From a virus (taxonomy: Duplodnaviria > Heunggongvirae > Uroviricota > Caudoviricetes): a DNA stretch of 14,413 nt. Both the position numbers and the translations under genes were made by a program. Shown piece by piece: positions 1-14,413 of this stretch. The number at the start of each line of letters is the position of its first letter. Position 1 is the first letter of the stretch. The DNA lies in IMG/VR virus record IMGVR_UViG_2654587996_000008; one strand, written 5' to 3'. Under the pieces are notes generated by a model, which did not search any database, was not told the origin of the DNA, and saw only the letters and a list, made by a program, of their open reading frames with translations.

Positions 1-267
1 TCAGAACTTTTTTCGAATGACATCCTGGAGCATTTCCTTGTCCAGACTGAGGTCTGCCACCAGACGACGGAGCCGCTGATTTTCATCCTCCAGTTGCCGC
101 AGACGGCGCAATTCTGTCACGCCCATCCCGCCAAACTTTTTCTTCCAGTTGTAAAAAGTGGCTTCAGAAATGCCCATCTTTCTGCACACTTCCTCCCCCC
201 GGGTGCCGATTTCAGCCTGTTTCAGCGCAAAAGCGATCTGTTCTTCGGTATAGCGGGTCTTTTTCAT
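1..267 (-). CDS. IS3-family transposase OrfA (HTH ORF, IS407-group-like)
   Basis: 88-aa ORF with stop at 1-3. Translation 'MKKTRYTEEQIAFALKQAEIG...ATFYNWKKKFGG...LRRLRQLEDENQRLRRL' has the HTH plus leucine-zipper pattern of IS3-family OrfA. An A6G slippery heptamer sits at its 3' end; orfB would lie beyond the left edge. Confidence 0.8.
   Translation of the reverse strand: MKKTRYTEEQIAFALKQAEIGTRGEEVCRKMGISEATFYNWKKKFGGMGVTELRRLRQLEDENQRLRRLVADLSLDKEMLQDVIRKKF
7..13 (-). other. Programmed -1 ribosomal frameshift heptamer A-AAA-AAG (IS3-family OrfAB fusion signal)
   Basis: The minus strand reads 'CGAAAAAAGTTCTGA' at nt 15..1, i.e. AAAAAAG immediately before the orfA stop. Confidence 0.6.
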
Positions 268-629
268 GACGGAATGGCCTCTTTGTTTGTTGAAAGAAAG
301 ACCGGATACTTCAGTTTAGACTGGTACTGTTTTCAGGGAAGAGATCATTTTGCGATTACACGTTTACTAGTATTAATGGATCCCCCCACTTAGCTCTTTT
401 TCTTACACCAAGTAAAAAGAAAAATCTAAGATGATCTTTTGCAGCCAAGCATCCCCACATACATACTTTACTCTCTAATTAAATGATAATTAGTCGTATT
501 CTTTTCATCACAAAAACGCTTTTTGATACGGCTAATCATATGACTTATCAAAGACATAACTAGAGTCGTTATCTTTTCAATAAGTAGAGCAGTTGGGTAG
601 CACTAGATGTGTTTGAGAATGAGGTTTTA

Positions 630-656
630 ATGAAAATGGCCCGTGTGAGGGGCCAT
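630..656 (-). terminator. Putative intrinsic terminator of the three-gene operon
   Basis: 7-bp GC-rich stem (636-642 'ATGGCCC' pairing 650-656 'GGGCCAT') with a 7-nt loop, followed on the minus strand by 'TTTCATT', directly after the stop at 659-661. Confidence 0.4.
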
Positions 657-658
657 AA

Positions 659-1126
659 TTATTTTACGATTCTGAAAGAAGGAATCTCAAGAAGAGGCAG
701 AAGCAGTGGTTTAATGCCCACGCGAGTAGATAACCCATAAACCTGCTCACGAACATATGGGTATATAATCAATGGAGCGTTAAAATCAGCCCAATGAGGG
801 ATATGCTTAACAGAGAATTCTTCAGTATCTACTGTAAAAACTCCTCCGACTTCAACCCATATAGAGACAGGTTGGTTCTCATACTCTTGGTTGTCAGCTT
901 CAGAATTATCCTCATCTACAGCAAATCTGCCAGCACGAACCCTCATACTTACATGTATAGTAGATGTTGCTTCATCAAAATCTGAATGGCCTGCTTCCAT
1001 AGCGTAGCTACCAGCTTGGTAGTCAGCCGAATGTGCAGTCTTAACGTCATGCACTTCAATACTCAGCTTCAAAACTTGCAACGAACGGAGTTGCACAGCA
1101 TGTGCTCGAAATGACTTATTTGACAT
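659..1126 (-). CDS. SecB-like chaperone
   Basis: 155 aa. C-terminal 'NAPLIIYPYVREQVYGLSTRVGIKPLLLPLL' matches the SecB signature segment (E. coli SecB '...[30 protein letters not shown]...'). Start overlaps the upstream stop as TAATG (translational coupling). Confidence 0.6.
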   Translation of the reverse strand: MSNKSFRAHAVQLRSLQVLKLSIEVHDVKTAHSADYQAGSYAMEAGHSDFDEATSTIHVSMRVRAGRFAVDEDNSEADNQEYENQPVSIWVEVGGVFTVDTEEFSVKHIPHWADFNAPLIIYPYVREQVYGLSTRVGIKPLLLPLLEIPSFRIVK

Positions 1127-1434
1127 TAGGCCGCCAGTGCAAATTCAGGTTCTGCTTCAACAGCTAAGACCGTGTCAGCGTTCAAGGATTTAGCAGCATT
1201 TAGCTTCACAGTAGCAAACAAAGTTACCAGTTCCTCTGTCATGACTTCTGAAAAGTGCAAAGACAAAGACTCCAGAGTATTTACATCAAAATCTTTGAAT
1301 TTTTCGCTTTTTTTCAGAAAAGAGGAAACATCCCCTTCTCTACATTCCCTGGCTTCTTTAAGGAACTCTTCAGGTGTTAAAGACAAGATGTCTTGTAACG
1401 CCGCGTCCAATGCAGCCTTCATTCTACGGTTCAT
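1126..1434 (-). CDS. Small acidic helical protein; putative antitoxin/adaptor of the operon
   Basis: 102 aa with SD 'GAGGGG' 8 nt upstream of the ATG. Starts 12 nt after the upstream gene and overlaps the downstream start. No recognisable DNA-binding motif; the C-terminal tail '...TVLAVEAEPEFALAA' is acidic/hydrophobic. Confidence 0.5.
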   Translation of the reverse strand: MNRRMKAALDAALQDILSLTPEEFLKEARECREGDVSSFLKKSEKFKDFDVNTLESLSLHFSEVMTEELVTLFATVKLNAAKSLNADTVLAVEAEPEFALAA

Positions 1435-1446
1435 AGTGGAACCCCT

Positions 1447-2052
1447 CTAATTTTTAGTTATAGCAAGATAATCCAGATTTCTAACTATCACAGCAAACGG
1501 CGCTCCAACATACCCAGCCAGTTGGTCTGGCATTTTATGTGGTTGCTGGACGGTGGCTAACACTACGCCAACTGATATGCATTTGGATTCTTCAGTTCGA
1601 TTGATGAGCATTTGATGCACTGCACAGATAAGGTCTTCTCTCTCATCAACATTCTGGGCATTTATAGTTGGCCAAAGACCATCAAGCGCTTTTCTTAAAG
1701 TTACTCTAAACTCGGGACTCTCAAGGTTTAAAACCTCTTCACCAGGTGCCTTGACGTACCCCCAAATTACAGCGCAACCTTTGTCAGCTTCGTCTGAATA
1801 TTCACCTCTTTTTTCAGCAGCAACAAACCAACTTTCTGCAAGTTGAGTTGCATATTGGCATCCTTTTTCAGCAGCATGCCAAAGATAAGCTCCCACACCA
1901 CGCCTACCACCGTCTCCAACTCTGAAACCATTCTCCAGAATTGATGCAGCCCTTGAGCAGCAAGTTCCATGGGAGCCATGTGCTTCGAAGAAGGTAGCTT
2001 CAACTGATTCATCATTAGCGGCTTGATCGGAAACTAAACTTAACATATTCAT
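1447..2052 (-). CDS. Putative ADP-ribosyltransferase-fold protein (PARP/diphtheria-toxin-like H-G-S/T motif)
   Basis: 201 aa. 'FFEAHGSHGTCCSRAASILENGFRVGDGGRRGVGAYLWHAAEKGCQYA' resembles the NAD-binding core of H-Y-E clade ARTs (PARP1 '[37 protein letters not shown]', diphtheria toxin 'YHGT'). Candidate catalytic acidic residues lie further downstream. The functional call is inference. Confidence 0.45.
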   Translation of the reverse strand: MNMLSLVSDQAANDESVEATFFEAHGSHGTCCSRAASILENGFRVGDGGRRGVGAYLWHAAEKGCQYATQLAESWFVAAEKRGEYSDEADKGCAVIWGYVKAPGEEVLNLESPEFRVTLRKALDGLWPTINAQNVDEREDLICAVHQMLINRTEESKCISVGVVLATVQQPHKMPDQLAGYVGAPFAVIVRNLDYLAITKN

Positions 2053-2148
2053 TTAGTTACCATTTATCCGTTTCTTAGTGTTCTTAGCCAACTAACTGAA
2101 CCTTCTTCAGTGGACGTTAGTAGACAAACTATAGGACAAGTTTATCCG

Positions 2149-2154
2149 ATTATA
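2149..2154 (-). promoter_or_regulatory. Candidate -10 box (TATAAT on minus strand) for the three-gene operon
   Basis: Plus-strand 'ATTATA' at 2149-2154 gives a perfect minus-strand TATAAT about 95 bp upstream of the start at 2052. No convincing -35 was found. Confidence 0.2.
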
Positions 2155-2348
2155 AAAACAACACAAGCTATCTGATGAATAGGTTGATCCCGTTTTTAAG
2201 TAATCACCTCAGCAAACAACAATTACTTACTGAAGCAACTGTAACTTAGAGCGCGTACGACCAAAAACCCCGCTAGCGGTGCCGATGAGTGACAAGTTTT
2301 GACAGGTGCATCAAACGATCTGCACATGAAATTTTCTAAAGCGGCGCG

Positions 2349-2606
2349 GTTGACACTTTCCGGCTTAAGACCTTAATAAATCTTAATATCGCAGGTTGAC
2401 ACACTTGACACTTTTTCGCGAAAAACCTTAGCATTTCTAAGCATGGCAACTTGACATTTTTCGCGGTTTTTTCGGCTTTTTGACGTGGTAAATCTGGCAC
2501 AAACCCAGTAATTGCGGGGCTTACAGCGAGGTTGACACTTTTTCGCGTTCAGAGTGTAAAGTGTCAACCTGGCAAGCTTGCCAGCTGCTCAACTTGACAC
2601 TTTTTG
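2349..2606 (+). repeat. Array of direct repeats, consensus about TTGACACTTTTTCGCG, plus one inverted copy and a 16-bp palindrome
   Basis: Copies at 2349-2360, 2395-2402, 2405-2420, 2451-2466, 2480-2485 (degenerate), 2531-2547 and 2594-2606; inverted 'GTGTCAAC' at 2561-2568; perfect palindrome 'CTGGCAAGCTTGCCAG' at 2569-2584. Spacing is irregular. Confidence 0.7.
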
Positions 2607-2609
2607 ATG

Positions 2610-3137
2610 TCATTGATGGTCTGATTTTTCCCACTCAGCCAGGGCGTTTAACCCGGCTTCACTCCATGATTCCGGTTCATCGGGATAATCACCTGCAACA
2701 TAGCAGAGTTCGCAACGCAGCATACGAATTGCCAGCCTGGCATTACCTCGCAAATTGTATTTTTCAAAGTAATGCTGCCCTTCATCATCCTCAAGGCAGA
2801 TAGCACCATCATCAAGAAAGTGCACTTCCCAGCCTAATTCCCCGGCTGCATACAGCACACGCTGCTGTATGCCCTCGTCCGTTACTGGCGCAGGAATTTT
2901 ACCGTCTCTGGCCTTAACTGCTTTCCAGAACTCGCCCCATGTCATTTCCAGCGTTCTTTCTGGCCACATTTCAGAAATGGTGTCTTTCCCCTGTGCTGGT
3001 GGGCTGTTCCGCTGCTCTGTCGCTTCCACATCAATTTTTTTACCGGACATGACCACTTCGCCTTTCTCGAGCCAGTCGTAAACTGTCTGGCGGCTTACGC
3101 CTTTGTATTTGGCGTATTCGGCTTTACTCATCAACAT
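2610..3137 (-). CDS. Nu1-like winged-HTH DNA-binding protein (possible terminase-small-subunit-like / packaging-redirection protein)
   Basis: About 175 aa from the ATG at 3137 (SD 'GAGGTG' 7 nt upstream; the ORF track's earlier ATG at 3155 lacks an SD). N-terminus 'MSKAEYAKYKGVSRQTVYDWLEKGEVV' resembles lambda Nu1 'KKQLADIFGASIRTIQNWQEQGMPV'. The repeat array lies immediately 3'. Confidence 0.5.
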   Translation of the reverse strand: MLMSKAEYAKYKGVSRQTVYDWLEKGEVVMSGKKIDVEATEQRNSPPAQGKDTISEMWPERTLEMTWGEFWKAVKARDGKIPAPVTDEGIQQRVLYAAGELGWEVHFLDDGAICLEDDEGQHYFEKYNLRGNARLAIRMLRCELCYVAGDYPDEPESWSEAGLNALAEWEKSDHQ

Positions 3138-3236
3138 GTAGCTCACCTCATGCATATACGATAAAAAATAATTTCATGCGGAAAGGGAATGCGTTGTGGG
3201 TATGGAGGAAAGGGGCAATAACCGCCCCTTACTGAT

Positions 3237-5482: not shown

Positions 5483-5616
5483 ATCCCTATTCCAAATGAA
5501 AATATTCAGATTAATCTTATCAGGAACCCAGATGCAATTGAATATTCATCTGCTCAGCAACGTAGTAGCTTTCCTCAGAAAGCATCAACAAAAAACCAAG
5601 AGAATCCCATCCTCTG

Positions 5617-5904
5617 TTACTGACTACAATTGTTCTTTTTTTGGTATTTCCTGAATGCCTCACCATTGGGCTGATGTAATCCCATCCCGACATGTGCCCG
5701 GCAGATGGTTTTGCGCATCTCCCCGAAATTATCCTGCCTTGCTGGTGGGCGTGCTGCCTTGTGGATACATTCCGCGCGACGTTTTGCCGCCTGTTCCCGT
5801 GCCTTGTCATCATTCGCCAGCATGATGACCTCAGCCCACCGCGCCGCCGCTCTGCGGTACAGGCCACGCGCTTCCAGTGCTTCCGCTTTACTGTCCTGAA
5901 TCAT
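5617..5904 (-). CDS. PerC-family transcriptional regulator (Pch-like)
   Basis: 95 aa. 'KAEALEARGLYRRAAARWAEV' matches the conserved PerC/Pch N-terminal motif as I recall it. SD 'AGGAGG' upstream; ATGA overlap with the upstream stop. Confidence 0.65.
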   Translation of the reverse strand: MIQDSKAEALEARGLYRRAAARWAEVIMLANDDKAREQAAKRRAECIHKAARPPARQDNFGEMRKTICRAHVGMGLHQPNGEAFRKYQKKNNCSQ

Positions 5905-6479
5905 GCACCTGTTACCTCCTTTGCTGCCCGGCGCTGACGTTTGCGCTTCTCATTCAGCGCCACCAGCCGCGTTTCTGCCTCCTGCTGTTCCTGTGGTGTC
6001 ACTTCCCCACATGGCTGGCCTTTCAGGTCGTAGCGTACCCCACCAGCCATTAAGGCGCGGTAATAGCGCGGACACTGCGCATAAGATGCCAGCGTCGCAC
6101 GTAATGCCCCTGGCCCGAATGCCAGCCCCCTGACGGCGAGGTTCTGCATCAGGTCGTCGAATATCCCCACCTTAAGCGGCTTCGGTGCTTCCCGGCTGAA
6201 TAAGTCAGGCCACAACTCAGTAAGGCGGTTAACGCGCCTGCGGTTTTTTCGCTGCCGTTTGGTCATATGCCGCCACGGTGTCGCCCCTGTGGGCTTTTGC
6301 TGCGCTTTCTGGTTACCGGGCATCACTTTATGTGCCGATGTGGTTTTATCCTGCTCCTGCGTCGCCTGCGTCGTTTTCTGCGGCGTGCCGTAAATGCCTT
6401 TCGGTTTTCTGTTAATGGTCAGCTTAGTCATGCTTTGCCCCATCGTTTTTACTGGTTGTTTCATATCCGGTACTTTCAT
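5901..6479 (-). CDS. ProQ/FinO-domain RNA-binding protein
   Basis: 192 aa. 'KPLKVGIFDDL...LRATLASYAQCPRYYRALMAGGVRYDLKGQPCGEVT' parallels E. coli ProQ 'RPLKIGIFQDL...[36 protein letters not shown]', preceded by a basic Lys/Arg/Gln-rich N-terminus. The exact start is uncertain among several in-frame ATGs. Confidence 0.65.
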   Translation of the reverse strand: MKVPDMKQPVKTMGQSMTKLTINRKPKGIYGTPQKTTQATQEQDKTTSAHKVMPGNQKAQQKPTGATPWRHMTKRQRKNRRRVNRLTELWPDLFSREAPKPLKVGIFDDLMQNLAVRGLAFGPGALRATLASYAQCPRYYRALMAGGVRYDLKGQPCGEVTPQEQQEAETRLVALNEKRKRQRRAAKEVTGA

Positions 6480-10661: not shown

Positions 10662-11084
10662 GCCCACCAGCAAGCCAGCACACTGATCACATTGCCCACC
10701 AGCCGCAAATCTGGCATTGTTGGCGATGTGTTCAAGTGTGTAGCTTTCCCACTGGTGGCCCTCTGCGGTCGCCTTTGTTTTATCCAGAACGAAATCAGAC
10801 ATCAGATTAATCAGCACCTGGCGACCTGACAAAAACGCATCAGTCGCGCCACCAGCAAAATTTTTTGCTTTCCGGACAGCGTGACCAACGACATTTTGCA
10901 GCAAAATATTCTGCATTTCTGGCGTGCTGTAGTAACGGTGATCAGCGCCTTCACTCTGTGCGACCACAACGCTATAATCTGCCTCGTAGACAGTAAGCAA
11001 TATGGCGCAGTAGGCTATTCGTTCACAAAGGCGCTCCGGCAACGGGGCGCTTTCTCTTTTTGTAACGGTCAGAGCGTTACACAT
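10662..11084 (-). CDS. Hypothetical protein, 5' portion only; 3' end undefined (possible disrupted gene)
   Basis: ATG at 11084 overlaps the antirepressor stop (ATGTGTAA). The first ~140 residues look protein-like, but the frame then runs stop-free through regulatory DNA to 9822, so the true end cannot be set. The end coordinate is arbitrary. Confidence 0.25.
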
Positions 11085-11925
11085 GGCTGTTTTCCTCCAT
11101 GCGACGGGCTAACCAACGCTGCGAAAGACGAATTAATTCAGCTTTCCGCTGGTGGTAGCCCTGGCCTAACTCAATCAGCGTGATATTGCTCTGCTCAAGG
11201 TAAGAAAGGTGCTCAAGCTGCAACGTGCTCATGTGGTCGCGTGGTTCGCCTGTGATGCCGTTCGCCTGCGCCCACTGTTTTGCAGTCATGCCACCCAGCA
11301 CGATACGCGCCAGCATATTGGCTTCCGTGGTGTAGTGGTGCTGGAACGTGTTTTTATCCAGTTCAGCCCGGTACGCCTCCAGCGCGGCACACATTGGCTT
11401 AAAGTAGCTGGCAACTGTGATACGGGCTTTCATTTCCCGGCGTAACGCTGCGGAACGCACTGGCGCTACCTTGTGTAGCTCCTCCTCGCATTTGATGAAG
11501 TACTGACGAACGGCGCGGCCCTGTTCGGTGCGTTCGACCATCGCCAGTTCTTTCGCCATGTTCGTGGAGATCAAATAGTCTTCACTGCGACGATCACCGC
11601 CGCGCTTTGTTGTCCAATCAGAATCAAACTGTTCAATATTTACACTTTGGTTCCCCCATTTCGGGGAATCAAAGTACAAATTTTCTACAACTTCAAAATC
11701 CACACCCTTTTTAAATCCGTACTCATCAATGCGTCCTTTAATCCAGGTTGTGAAATCACGACCTACCCCGAGCGCCTTATGCGACGCTCTGGCGCTAACA
11801 ATATTGGTTTCACGCCCGCCAATAACGCCGGAAATAACCGGGATAATTTCGCCAAAATTTTGCAGATTCTGGTTTTCAGGCCGAACGAAGCCCTGCCCCT
11901 GTACGGGCGTTTTTCGCAGTTTCAT
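11077..11925 (-). CDS. Phage antirepressor-like protein (AntA-type N-terminal domain plus KilA-C-type C-terminal domain)
   Basis: 282 aa with SD 'AGGAG' upstream. 'SARASHKALGVGRDFTTWIKGRI' and 'MAKELAMVERTEQGRAVRQYFIKCEEEL' match antirepressor domain signatures as I recall them. Confidence 0.6.
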   Translation of the reverse strand: MKLRKTPVQGQGFVRPENQNLQNFGEIIPVISGVIGGRETNIVSARASHKALGVGRDFTTWIKGRIDEYGFKKGVDFEVVENLYFDSPKWGNQSVNIEQFDSDWTTKRGGDRRSEDYLISTNMAKELAMVERTEQGRAVRQYFIKCEEELHKVAPVRSAALRREMKARITVASYFKPMCAALEAYRAELDKNTFQHHYTTEANMLARIVLGGMTAKQWAQANGITGEPRDHMSTLQLEHLSYLEQSNITLIELGQGYHQRKAELIRLSQRWLARRMEENSHV

Positions 11926-12002
11926 AAAAACTCCTGCTATCGAATTAAGTTACTTTTGTTTGCTGGTGGATAGTTGGGGCTTCTGGCCCCGTAGCCATTT
12001 AA

Positions 12003-12200
12003 TCAGGTAGCTGTTCCGCGTGATTCCGCAATACGCTGATTAATCCACTCGTCAATTTCACTCTCAACGAAAGCAATCGCTCGCGAGCCAATTTTTACAG
12101 GTTTAGGAAAACGCCCTTGGGCAATGAGTTTATAGATCCATGCCCTTCCATACCCTGTACGGCGCATGGTTTCTGGCATACGAATTAAAGATTGTGACAT
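12003..12200 (-). CDS. alpA: AlpA-family transcriptional regulator / excisionase-like protein
   Basis: About 65 aa from the ATG at 12200 (SD 'GGGAGA' upstream). 'IRMPETMRRTGYGRAWIYKLIAQGRFPKPVKIGSRAIAFVESEIDEWINQR' is the AlpA-type HTH signature. The ORF-track N-terminal extension is rejected. Confidence 0.75.
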   Translation of the reverse strand: MSQSLIRMPETMRRTGYGRAWIYKLIAQGRFPKPVKIGSRAIAFVESEIDEWINQRIAESRGTAT

Positions 12201-13198: not shown

Positions 13199-14413
13199 TC
13201 ACCCGCATTTTCCGAACTCACCATGCACCACATTTCCGCCATGCTCGAGCGAATCCATATAGTCGGCATACCACTGGAGCATCTCCCGGCGACCATCCAG
13301 ATATTGCGCATGGTTGTATGTGCCACGAATTGAGTTTTTATCGACGTGTGCAAGCTGTGTCTCTATCCACGCGGTGTTATAGCCCTGCTCATGCAAAATG
13401 GTGCTCATGGTGTGCCGGAATCCATGACCAGTAACCTTTCCGTTATAGCCGATGCGTTTAAATACTTGGTTTATGCTAGCCTCGCTCATTGTTTTCCTTG
13501 GATCATTACGGCCGGGAAACATAAGCGGATAATTGCCAGTTAATTCTTTAATCTGCCCAATAAGCGAAAGAGCCTGCTCAGACAAAGGCACCACATGAGG
13601 GCGACGCATTTTCATCCGTGAAGCAGGTATCTCCCAGATAGCCTTGTTGAGATCGATTTCATCCCATAATGCACCGCGCAGTTCGCCAGTCCGCAAACCG
13701 GTGATAATCAGTAGACGAGCCGCCATAACAACCAATGCACTTCCTGAGTAACTGGACAATGCCTTGAAAAAATCAGGTAATTCTTTGGCTGTGAGGAAAG
13801 GATAATGACTAGATTCATGACCTTGCATCGCGCTGGTGAGATCCGGTGCAGGGTTATACTCAGCACGTCCAGTGACAATTGCATAGCGGAAAACTTCCCC
13901 GCATCGCTGCCTCACTTTTTTGGCTTTTTCGGTAGCACCGCGCCCCTCGATGCGCCGCAGCACATTCAGCAGTTCAAGTGGTTTGATTTCGGCGATTGGT
14001 TTTTTGCCAATGTAAGGGAACACATCTTTGTTGAAGGCTTCGAGGATGTCTGAAGCATAACCAGCAGACCATTTTTTTAATTTGCTGCTGTGCCACTCAA
14101 TGGCAATATCTTTGAAGGTGTTGTTTAACTGCGTTTCCCGGGCAATCTTTTCCTCTCGTTTCGCTTCCATCGGATCGATACCCCCAGCGATACTCCTTTT
14201 AGCTTCTTCACGTTTTGCACGAGCATCAGCCAAGGTAACTTCAGGATACACACCTAGTGCTAACAGCTTCTCTTTACCAGCTACACGATACTTGAAGCGC
14301 CAATATTTTCCTCCACTAGGTTTTACCAAGAGATACAGACCACCACCATCAGCCAGCTTGTAAGCCTTCTCTTTTGGCTTGGCAGTGTCTATTTGACGGG
14401 CATTGAGTTTCAC
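13199..14413 (-). CDS. int: P4-type tyrosine integrase (site-specific recombinase)
   Basis: 404 aa. N-terminus 'KLNARQIDTAKPKEKAYKLADGGGLYLLVKPSGGKYWRFKYR' is typical of P4/CP4-57-type integrases; C-terminus has 'HGFRHT' and 'RGTYNHA' (catalytic Tyr region). Apparent GTG start sits exactly at the window edge, so the N-terminus may be slightly truncated. Confidence 0.9.
   Translation of the reverse strand: MKLNARQIDTAKPKEKAYKLADGGGLYLLVKPSGGKYWRFKYRVAGKEKLLALGVYPEVTLADARAKREEAKRSIAGGIDPMEAKREEKIARETQLNNTFKDIAIEWHSSKLKKWSAGYASDILEAFNKDVFPYIGKKPIAEIKPLELLNVLRRIEGRGATEKAKKVRQRCGEVFRYAIVTGRAEYNPAPDLTSAMQGHESSHYPFLTAKELPDFFKALSSYSGSALVVMAARLLIITGLRTGELRGALWDEIDLNKAIWEIPASRMKMRRPHVVPLSEQALSLIGQIKELTGNYPLMFPGRNDPRKTMSEASINQVFKRIGYNGKVTGHGFRHTMSTILHEQGYNTAWIETQLAHVDKNSIRGTYNHAQYLDGRREMLQWYADYMDSLEHGGNVVHGEFGKCG

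What the first reader, a model, noticed from the sequence alone, without database searches (positions are those of the whole stretch)
1..660. IS3-family element abutting the AT-rich cargo end
An IS3-family orfA with an A6G frameshift signal occupies the left edge. It is followed by about 260 bp of AT-rich, ORF-free DNA and then the low-GC three-gene operon, whose composition contrasts with the GC-richer primase/integrase region. This suggests the cargo was acquired separately, and the IS may have truncated or remodelled the island's distal end.
Basis: seen in the sequence. Interest (0 to 1): 0.35.

Follow-up and report, generated by a model that had tools for sequence, protein, structure and literature searches.

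The report
Decayed IS3 element inside phage satellite
The left edge of the window is one end of an ordinary, mutationally disabled IS3-family insertion sequence that landed in a short non-coding seam near the far end of an E. coli phage-satellite island and has since travelled with it, without damaging the island's end.

Summary
Window 1-267 (- strand) is a complete 88-aa IS3-family orfA ending in an in-phase A AAA AAG slippery heptamer (7-13). The IS ends exactly at 347, with terminal repeat TGATCTCTTCCC. AT-rich DNA without credible ORFs follows (348-658, GC 0.35), then a three-gene operon.

The cargo was acquired separately. A sister island (E. coli N921) has the same backbone with different cargo, and the same 1.9-kb module (window 406-2304) occurs without an IS at 97% identity in an unrelated chromosomal site and at 87% in a Klebsiella P2-like prophage.

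The IS did not truncate or remodel the island end. The full 1,212-bp element is flanked by a 4-bp duplication (AAAA). The integrase arm-type repeats lie 21 bp beyond it and the attR core (the tRNA-Thr thrW 3' end) lies 102 bp beyond it, both intact.

All 11 copies of the island found carry an essentially identical IS (one SNP in one copy) at the same site, with the same orfB nonsense mutation (K331*), in at least three chromosomal contexts. It is best read as a frozen hitch-hiker. No IS-free allele of this junction was found.

The finding is ordinary and of low interest. The neighbouring CmdTAC-like cassette, with an ADP-ribosyltransferase-fold toxin, is the more interesting feature.

The parts
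1..347 (-). Left (orfA-proximal) 347 bp of a 1,212-bp IS3-family insertion sequence. The remaining 865 bp (rest of orfB and IRR) lie beyond the window's left edge.
   Evidence: Megablast hits to IS3-family copies in 56 E. coli records all cover window 1-347 (one 1-346). The full element was read in L002 10780-11991.
1..267 (-). orfA, 88 aa, helix-turn-helix plus leucine-zipper-like tail, complete.
   Evidence: PF01527 E 6e-25. NF033516.
7..13 (-). A AAA AAG programmed -1 frameshift heptamer, in phase, two codons before the orfA stop.
   Evidence: Read directly from the sequence. The -1 read-through reproduces the OrfAB fusion of intact relatives. A stem-loop lies downstream but is not statistically distinctive.
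336..347 (-). Terminal inverted repeat IRL, TGATCTCTTCCC. It matches IRR TGATCCCTTCCC at 11 of 12 positions. Typical TG...CA ends.
348..351 (.). One copy of the putative 4-bp target-site duplication (AAAA on the - strand). The other copy follows IRR outside the window.
   Evidence: Flanks are CGCAAAA|IS|AAAAGTAATT in all 11 island copies. An intact K. grimontii relative has the 4-bp TSD TTGG.
348..405 (.). 58-bp seam DNA found only in this island variant. Together with 21 bp beyond the IS it forms the 79-bp segment the IS inserted into.
   Evidence: Homology to the IS-free module copy L036 ends at window 406. Homology to the N921 island resumes 21 bp past the IS. No hits elsewhere.
406..2304 (-). 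Imported cargo module: own promoter region, three-gene TAC-like operon, terminator, and a ~220-bp AT-rich non-coding tail (406-625).
   Evidence: 97.1% nt identity over 1,900 bp to the IS-free L036. The core 626-2262 is 87% identical to a K. pneumoniae P2-like prophage.
636..656 (-). Intrinsic-terminator-like hairpin (7-bp stem, 5 GC pairs, T-rich tail) immediately after the SecB-like gene.
   Evidence: Conserved in the Klebsiella copy with compensating loop changes.
659..1126 (-). SecB-like chaperone, 155 aa (third gene of the operon).
   Evidence: PF02556 (weak). PADLOC PD-T4-9_C E 2e-9. PDB Rv1957 TAC chaperone E 7e-7.
1126..1434 (-). 102-aa putative antitoxin (middle gene).
   Evidence: Position in a conserved trio in three contexts. 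No family hit.
1447..2052 (-). 201-aa putative toxin with an ADP-ribosyltransferase fold.

Best explanation
Window 1-347 is the orfA end of a single 1,212-bp IS3-family insertion sequence. By its 4-bp duplication and OrfA pattern it resembles the IS407 subgroup.

The IS transposed into a 79-bp AT-rich non-coding seam near the attR end of a ~15.6-kb island integrated at tRNA-Thr thrW. The island is a PICI-type phage satellite and a relative of EcCIMP1. The insertion point lies 311 bp downstream of, and in the same direction as, a horizontally acquired toxin-antitoxin-chaperone cassette. It is 58 bp past the end of that imported module, 21 bp before the integrase arm-type repeats and 102 bp before the attR core. 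Insertion made a 4-bp duplication (AAAA) and disrupted no gene and no att component.

The copy then acquired a nonsense mutation in orfB (K331 to TAG). This removes the last 36 residues of the 366-aa OrfAB transposase, which probably immobilised the element. It has since been carried passively as the island spread among E. coli lineages.

Shown: IS identity, boundaries, terminal repeats, flanking repeat, nonsense codon, intact attR and arm sites, identical placement in 11 copies, and the separate origin of the cargo.

Inferred: the order of events, the loss of transposase activity, and that island spread was integrase/helper-phage mediated.
For: IS identity and ends.

Flanks: CGCAAAA|IS|AAAAGT in L002-L011 and in metagenome contig L017.

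4-bp TSD in relatives: an intact K. grimontii copy has TTGG. A second, unrelated IS3-family element in the same tail in L004 has AGCC.

Transposase: OrfAB is 366 aa in the K. grimontii and Rahnella copies. The island copy stops at codon 331, where the others read AAG. The TAG is present in all 11 copies, with 0-1 SNP per 1,212 bp.

Island ends: attL is tRNA-Thr(CGT) next to int. The attR core and arm repeats lie beyond the IS. The E. coli backbone (yagP-paoD) starts right after the core.

Spread: the island differs by 1-3 positions in 12,093 bp, against 52-53 in 8,353 bp of adjacent backbone. It sits in three different downstream contexts: yagP, the Vat island, and an AbiE island.

Cargo independence.

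The IS lies downstream of a terminator and is co-directional with the operon, so it supplies no promoter to it.

Satellite identity: int is 92% nt identical to that of EcCIMP1 at the same proA-thrW...yagU site, with the same arm motif.
Against: No IS-free copy of this exact junction was found, so the simple-insertion model rests on the flanking repeat and intact downstream sites. The searches were: a metagenome scan for the predicted empty site (0 hits); a species-representative genome scan for a 28-mer from the cargo-side seam next to the IS, which would detect this junction with or without the IS (0 hits); and 5,426 complete E. coli genomes, which lack the cargo altogether.

The repeat AAAA is low-complexity in AT-rich DNA. 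The chance of such a match is roughly 1%.

Two other relatives of the IS (L019, L021) show no flanking repeat.

Loss of transposase activity from the C-terminal truncation is inferred. The DDE residues are still encoded.

The IS could have inserted before the module or seam reached this island.
Confidence: 0.85

Rival explanations
1. One reading: the IS truncated or rearranged the island's distal end, by adjacent deletion or inversion, or by recombination between IS copies. On this view the present end is a remnant.
For: The IS sits only 58 bp from the end of the imported module and 21 bp from the conserved arm region, which is right at the cargo/backbone seam. No IS-free allele was found for comparison. 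Sister island N921 has a longer cargo region, 3.4 kb against 2.0 kb.
Against: Both IS ends are present with a 4-bp direct repeat, which IS-mediated deletion or inversion would remove. The arm repeats and attR core are intact and in the same relative position as in EcCIMP1 and N921. The sequence beyond the IS is identical in all 11 copies up to the att core, after which the contexts diverge. That is as expected for an intact integrative element.
Confidence: 0.06
2. The IS delivered the cargo. The TAC cassette would have arrived as part of an IS-bounded (composite or one-ended) transposition event, or by recombination using the IS as portable homology.
For: The IS is physically adjacent to a demonstrably mobile cassette. 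A second IS3-family element has also landed in the same tail in one genome.
Against: There is only one IS copy and no second copy on the other side of the cargo. The same module is IS-free in L036, in the Klebsiella prophage and in the umuDC-adjacent loci. The module end (window 406) does not coincide with the IS end (347). The IS carries its own 4-bp duplication.
Confidence: 0.04
3. The IS, or its intact orfA, has been co-opted for the island. It might act as a regulator, as a transcriptional insulator or promoter towards attR, or as a stuffer that adjusts packaged genome size.
For: The IS is fixed and identical in every copy seen, and orfA and the frameshift site are intact while orfB is truncated.
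Against: The identity across copies reflects recent common descent: the whole island differs by at most 3 in 12 kb in most copies. It therefore says nothing about selection. Related islands (N921, EcCIMP1) function or exist without any IS. Only non-coding DNA and att lie downstream of IRR.
Confidence: 0.03

Closest known systems
IS3 family, IS407-type subgroup (e.g. IS407 or IS1222-like elements; subgroup traits recalled from ISfinder/TnPedia, not checked against ISfinder here)
   Same: Length about 1.2 kb. orfA (HTH) and orfB (rve/DDE) lie in 0/-1 phase with an A AAA AAG slippery site. TG...CA terminal repeats. 4-bp target duplication. The OrfA sequence pattern MKK.R.T.EQI...LK.AE.G....E.CRK.G.S.A.FY.W..K.GG is as I recall it for this subgroup. 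OrfB is 43% identical to that of the second element in L004, whose ends TGACCTGCCCCC are classic IS407-type.
   Different: The terminal repeat is TGATCTCTTCCC, not TGACCTGCCCCC. NCBI annotation gives only the generic name 'IS3 family transposase', so it may or may not be a registered IS. This copy has a premature stop in orfB. The nearest E. coli copies, 96% identical on IncF plasmids, are also decayed.
EcCIMP1, an experimentally validated E. coli PICI at proA-thrW...yagU (PMC11773190)
   Same: Same integration site. The 404-aa integrase is 92% nt identical. Same arm-type motif near attR. It also has AlpA next to int, an AntA-like antirepressor, DUF4222 and PerC-family genes, no structural or lysis genes, and can sit next to the MarR-Vat island.
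   Different: The replication module differs: D5_N/DUF5906 582-aa primase here, TOPRIM/DUF927 in EcCIMP1. The accessory genes differ. EcCIMP1 has no IS3-family element at its attR end and no TAC cassette. Helper-phage induction was not tested for this island.
CmdTAC (PD-T4-9) toxin-antitoxin-chaperone anti-phage system (PMC9519451, PMC11618068; bioRxiv 10.1101/2024.02.24.581848)
   Same: Three-gene order of toxin, small antitoxin, SecB-like chaperone. The chaperone matches PADLOC PD-T4-9_C (E 2e-9) and Rv1957. The toxin model has an ART fold with candidate H-Y-E residues, as reported for CmdT. It is carried on phage-related mobile elements.
   Different: The toxin and antitoxin do not match the PADLOC PD-T4-9 A or B models, nor any Pfam, NCBIfam or PDB sequence. 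The family is small: 12 clusters at 90% identity. Defence activity and the ChAD element were not tested.

Membership tests
IS3 family insertion sequence | Two consecutive ORFs: orfA with an HTH domain and orfB with an rve/DDE domain, orfB in the -1 phase | tested here: met
   orfA matches PF01527. orfB matches PF13276, PF00665 and PF13683 in the full copy, and NF033516 at E 1e-59. The -1 fusion reads through.
IS3 family insertion sequence | Slippery heptamer (A AAA AAG type) near the end of orfA | tested here: met
   Window 13..7 on the - strand, in phase. Actual frameshifting cannot be tested here.
IS3 family insertion sequence | Imperfect terminal inverted repeats ending 5'-TG...CA-3' | tested here: met
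   TGATCTCTTCCC and TGATCCCTTCCC, 11 of 12 matching.
IS3 family insertion sequence | Short (3-5 bp) target-site duplication | tested here: met
   AAAA on both sides in 11 copies. This is low-complexity, so weak on its own. The K. grimontii relative has TTGG.
IS3 family insertion sequence | Full-length, potentially active OrfAB transposase | tested here: not met
   K331 is replaced by TAG, which removes 36 of 366 residues including the conserved YN..RPHSSL..TP.EF tail. It is therefore a member by descent but probably a dead copy.
IS407 subgroup of IS3 | 4-bp duplication, and clustering of the transposase with IS407-type elements in ISfinder | tested here: inconclusive
   The 4-bp duplication is met. 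OrfB is 43% identical to an element with IS407-type ends. No ISfinder comparison was possible.
PICI-type phage satellite (host island) | Integrase next to a specific att site, AlpA just downstream, a primase/replication module, and no virion or lysis genes | tested here: met
   int at 13199-14413, thrW attL and attR. AlpA PF05930 at window about 12003-12200. D5_N/DUF5906 primase. No structural domains among the ORFs scanned.
PICI-type phage satellite (host island) | Helper-phage-induced excision, replication and packaging | not testable with these tools
   Indirect only: near-identical island in divergent backbones and tandem arrangements; the relative EcCIMP1 is validated.
Toxin-antitoxin-chaperone (TAC) / CmdTAC | Dedicated SecB-like chaperone encoded with a TA pair | tested here: met
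   The trio is conserved in four genomic contexts.
Toxin-antitoxin-chaperone (TAC) / CmdTAC | CmdT and CmdA sequence-family membership | tested here: not met
   No PADLOC PD-T4-9 A or B hit at E <= 0.01. Only the ART fold is shared.
Toxin-antitoxin-chaperone (TAC) / CmdTAC | Antitoxin C-terminal chaperone-addiction (ChAD) region; anti-phage activity | not tested
   Would need complex modelling or experiments.

The most novel reading that the evidence does not exclude
The AT-rich non-coding tail between the defence cassette and the attR arm sites of thrW satellites may be a preferred 'safe-harbour' landing pad for IS3-family elements. Two unrelated ISs landed within 185 bp of each other in this lineage. 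IS copies parked there might then serve as portable homology that drives exchange of defence-cargo modules among satellites, prophages and plasmids. Related decayed copies of this IS sit on E. coli IncF plasmids.
Probability: 0.07. Interest if true: 0.45.

Novelty: new member of a known kind. Interest (0 to 1): 0.15.

Why it matters
Its value is mainly in cleaning up the annotation. It fixes the true boundaries of the IS (ending at window 347), of the imported defence module (406-2304), and of the island (thrW attL to an attR 102 bp beyond the IS). It also shows that the IS is a neutral, dead passenger rather than the agent that shaped the island's end.

It gives a small, concrete example of a phage satellite tolerating 1.2 kb of extra selfish DNA while still spreading between lineages.

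It also points to the adjacent cassette, a rare CmdTAC-like system with an unclassified ADP-ribosyltransferase-fold toxin, as the feature worth experimental follow-up.

Tried and rejected
1. Empty-site search. The predicted IS-free junction (26-mer, G/T variant allowed) gave 0 hits in metagenome contigs. A 28-mer from the cargo side gave one metagenome contig, which also carries the IS, and 0 hits in species-representative genomes.

2. Looking for the cargo or spacer in annotated collections. There was no match for window 348-2100 in plasmids, 348-700 in complete E. coli genomes, or 348-2347 in phages.

3. Treating the spacer as a functional RNA. No Rfam match was found for window 1-2700. Folding of 348-660 is not distinctive (z = -1.7). 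No notable repeats were found.

4. I first thought all of 348-625 was orphan DNA. L036 showed that 406-625 travels with the cassette.

5. Naming the IS. PGAP and GenBank records give only 'IS3 family transposase', and a literature search gave nothing specific.

6. A frameshift-stimulating structure downstream of A6G. A stem-loop is predicted but is no better than shuffled sequence.

7. A distant-relative scan with the toxin profile in species-representative genomes. It gave only weak partial hits in Desulfobacterales and Treponema MAGs, which say nothing about the IS question.

8. Composite-transposon idea. Rejected because there is no second IS copy and the cassette is IS-free elsewhere.

Full report
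**What is at 1-660**

Window 1-267 on the minus strand is a complete 88-aa ORF. It matches Pfam HTH_Tnp_1 at E 6e-25 and the NCBIfam IS3-transposase model. Its last codons read CGA AAA AAG TTC TGA. The heptamer A AAA AAG therefore lies at window 13..7 in the correct phase, two codons before the stop, which is window 3..1.

Megablast of window 1-2100 against 5,426 complete E. coli genomes found 56 records. Every hit covers only 1-347 (one covers 1-346) and is annotated 'IS3 family transposase'. That fixes the IS end at 347. Read on the minus strand, the element starts TGATCTCTTCCC.

From 348 to 658 there are 311 bp of GC 0.354 with no ORF of 50 aa or more. Positions 636-656 form a terminator-like hairpin immediately after the stop of the next gene. 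One correction applies: the first 80 bp after orfA (268-347) still belong to the IS, and the non-IS gap is 311 bp rather than about 260.

**The whole IS and its insertion site**

Exact-protein look-up of the neighbouring 155-aa gene returned ten long contigs (L002-L011), and eight of them contain window 1-2000 exactly. In L002 the IS is 1,212 bp (10780-11991) and ends ...GGGAAGGGATCA. The terminal repeats match at 11 of 12 positions. The flanks read CGCAAAA|IS|AAAAGTAATT, a 4-bp direct repeat.

The same IS, site and flanks occur in all ten contigs and in the only metagenome contig that contains the cargo-side flank (L017). An intact relative on a K. grimontii plasmid has the 4-bp duplication TTGG. 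Two other relatives show none.

With a -1 shift at A6G, the K. grimontii and Rahnella copies encode a 366-aa OrfAB. The island copy has TAG where they have AAG at codon 331, so it loses the last 36 residues. All 11 island copies share this TAG and differ by at most one SNP. The closest E. coli copies, 96% identical on IncF-type plasmids, are annotated as frameshifted with internal stops.

**Where the island ends**

Beyond the IS come 21 bp of unique sequence. Next is AGTTGGGGGTACTTTTGGGGGTACC. At 102 bp from the IS is ACTCCTATTATCG-CACCATT.

On the other side of the island, about 165 bp beyond the integrase start (the window's right edge), lies tRNA-Thr(CGT), downstream of proBA. Its 3' end reads GACTCCTATTATCGGCACCATT, and TTGGGGGTACTTTTGGGGGTA lies just upstream of int.

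The segment from the att core onward is ordinary E. coli backbone (thrW/yagP-paoD) in 3,773 of 5,426 complete genomes. The island therefore runs from thrW to an intact attR, and its arm-type repeats are intact. The IS sits inside the island, not at or across its end.

The experimentally validated PICI EcCIMP1 occupies the same proA-thrW...yagU site. Its integrase is 92% nt identical, it has the same arm motif near its attR, and it has an AlpA/AntA/DUF4222/PerC gene set with a different primase.

**Is the cargo a separate acquisition?**

Yes, and comparison shows this more clearly than composition does. E. coli N921 has the same backbone: 98.9% identity over window 5026-3736 and 90.9% over 3705-2348. 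It then has a different 3.4-kb cargo (DUF4747 and others) and no IS, and homology resumes at the arm repeats 21 bp past our IS.

The cargo itself recurs elsewhere.
- Window 2304..406 is 97.1% identical to an IS-free insert between der and an MFS gene in L036.
- Window 2262..626 is 87% identical to an insert in a K. pneumoniae P2-like prophage.
- A 58%-identical trio lies next to umuDC-like genes in Klebsiella.
- Protein clusters at 90% identity or more span Cronobacter, Klebsiella, Serratia, Enterobacter and Pectobacterium.

The AT-rich stretch 406-625 therefore belongs to the travelling module. Only 348-405, plus the 21 bp beyond the IS, is a seam unique to this island, and the IS landed in that 79-bp seam.

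On composition, the operon has GC 0.429 and GC3 0.31-0.40, against 0.467 for the backbone. The backbone is itself mosaic, ranging from 0.39 to 0.565.

**Did the IS remodel the end?**

The evidence says no.
- Both IS ends and a flanking 4-bp repeat are present. IS-mediated adjacent deletion or inversion removes one repeat copy.
- The arm repeats and attR are intact.
- The sequence after the IS is the same in all copies up to the att core. Only after the core do contexts diverge: yagP; a truncated integrase plus MarR and Vat; or an AbiE-containing island.
- The island differs by 1-3 positions in 12,093 bp between genomes whose adjacent backbone differs by 52-53 in 8,353 bp.
- In one assembly it lies behind another island rather than directly after thrW.

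These facts fit an island that kept moving, or being moved, as a unit after the IS arrived.

The IS lies downstream of the operon's terminator and is transcribed in the same direction, so it cannot drive the cargo.

One genome (L004) has a second, unrelated IS3-family element in the same tail at window ~530-533. It is 1,221 bp with ends TGACCTGC(T/C)CCC and the 4-bp duplication AGCC. This non-coding tail evidently tolerates insertions.

**Limits**

I did not find an IS-free allele of this exact junction. The pre-insertion sequence is therefore inferred. The repeat AAAA is low-complexity. Loss of transposition from the K331* truncation is an inference.

**The neighbouring operon, briefly**

The 155-aa protein is SecB-like. 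Its best PDB sequence match is the TAC chaperone Rv1957 (E 7e-7), and it matches PADLOC PD-T4-9_C (E 2e-9).

CmdT of CmdTAC is reported as an H-Y-[EDQ] ADP-ribosyltransferase paired with a SecB-like chaperone (PMC11618068). This cassette works like a CmdTAC-type system but fails the sequence-membership test for CmdT and CmdA.

**Verdict**

This is a correctly spotted but ordinary IS3-family insertion. It is a simple insertion, it has decayed, and it is hitch-hiking in a PICI-type satellite. The 'separately acquired cargo' idea is right. The 'IS truncated or remodelled the end' idea is not supported.

Noticed in passing
[not shown]
   Followed up: partly
window 2350-2603: Six copies of TTGACAYTTT (five direct, one inverted) cluster in 254 bp, where 0.15 are expected by chance in the whole window. 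They lie just downstream of the TerS-like/HTH 181-aa gene, and the outermost copy (2350-2359) lies at the backbone/cargo boundary (~2348). A 36-bp piece containing the last copy also flanks the IS-free cassette in L036. This could be a protein-binding array (pac site, origin or recombination site).
   Followed up: partly
L004 10598-11818 (equivalent to window ~530-533): A second, unrelated IS3-family element is inserted in the same AT-rich tail in one genome. It is 1,221 bp with IS407-type ends TGACCTGC(T/C)CCC and the 4-bp duplication AGCC.
   Followed up: yes
L002 12013-12035 and L013 ~2945-2970 (both outside the window); L026 8781: The repeat TTGGGGGTACTTTTGGGGGTA occurs near both ends of the island and near attR of EcCIMP1. 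These are probably integrase arm-type binding sites.
   Followed up: partly
L014/L016 1-2800; L003/L004/L008 12116-19000; L006/L010/L011 12116-18500: The thrW locus holds tandem islands in different orders. A GmrSD/FlxA island lies upstream of this satellite in some genomes. A truncated-integrase-MarR-Vat island or an AbiEi/AbiEii-containing island lies downstream in others.
   Followed up: partly
window 2610-3155 (- strand): The 181-aa HTH protein has a weak match to the PHROG small-terminase family phrog_57 (E 2e-6). It may be a satellite packaging-redirection protein.
   Followed up: no
window 5600-6400: A sharp GC peak (0.56-0.61) covers the ProQ/FinO-like gene (5901-6479) and the PerC-family gene (5617-5904), flanked by segments of about 0.38-0.40. 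This is another sign that the backbone is mosaic.
   Followed up: no
L001 / L018 (E. coli IncF-type plasmids, ~3.5-4.8 kb in each record): The closest relatives of this IS (96% identical) sit at the same plasmid position next to an autotransporter gene in many E. coli plasmids. They are heavily decayed, with frameshifts, internal stops and a 10-bp shorter length.
   Followed up: partly
L036 6674-8720 (GCA_009823905.1): The cargo module stands alone between der and an MFS transporter gene. There is no integrase, IS or phage gene nearby, yet it is 97% identical to the island copy. How it got there is unexplained.
   Followed up: partly
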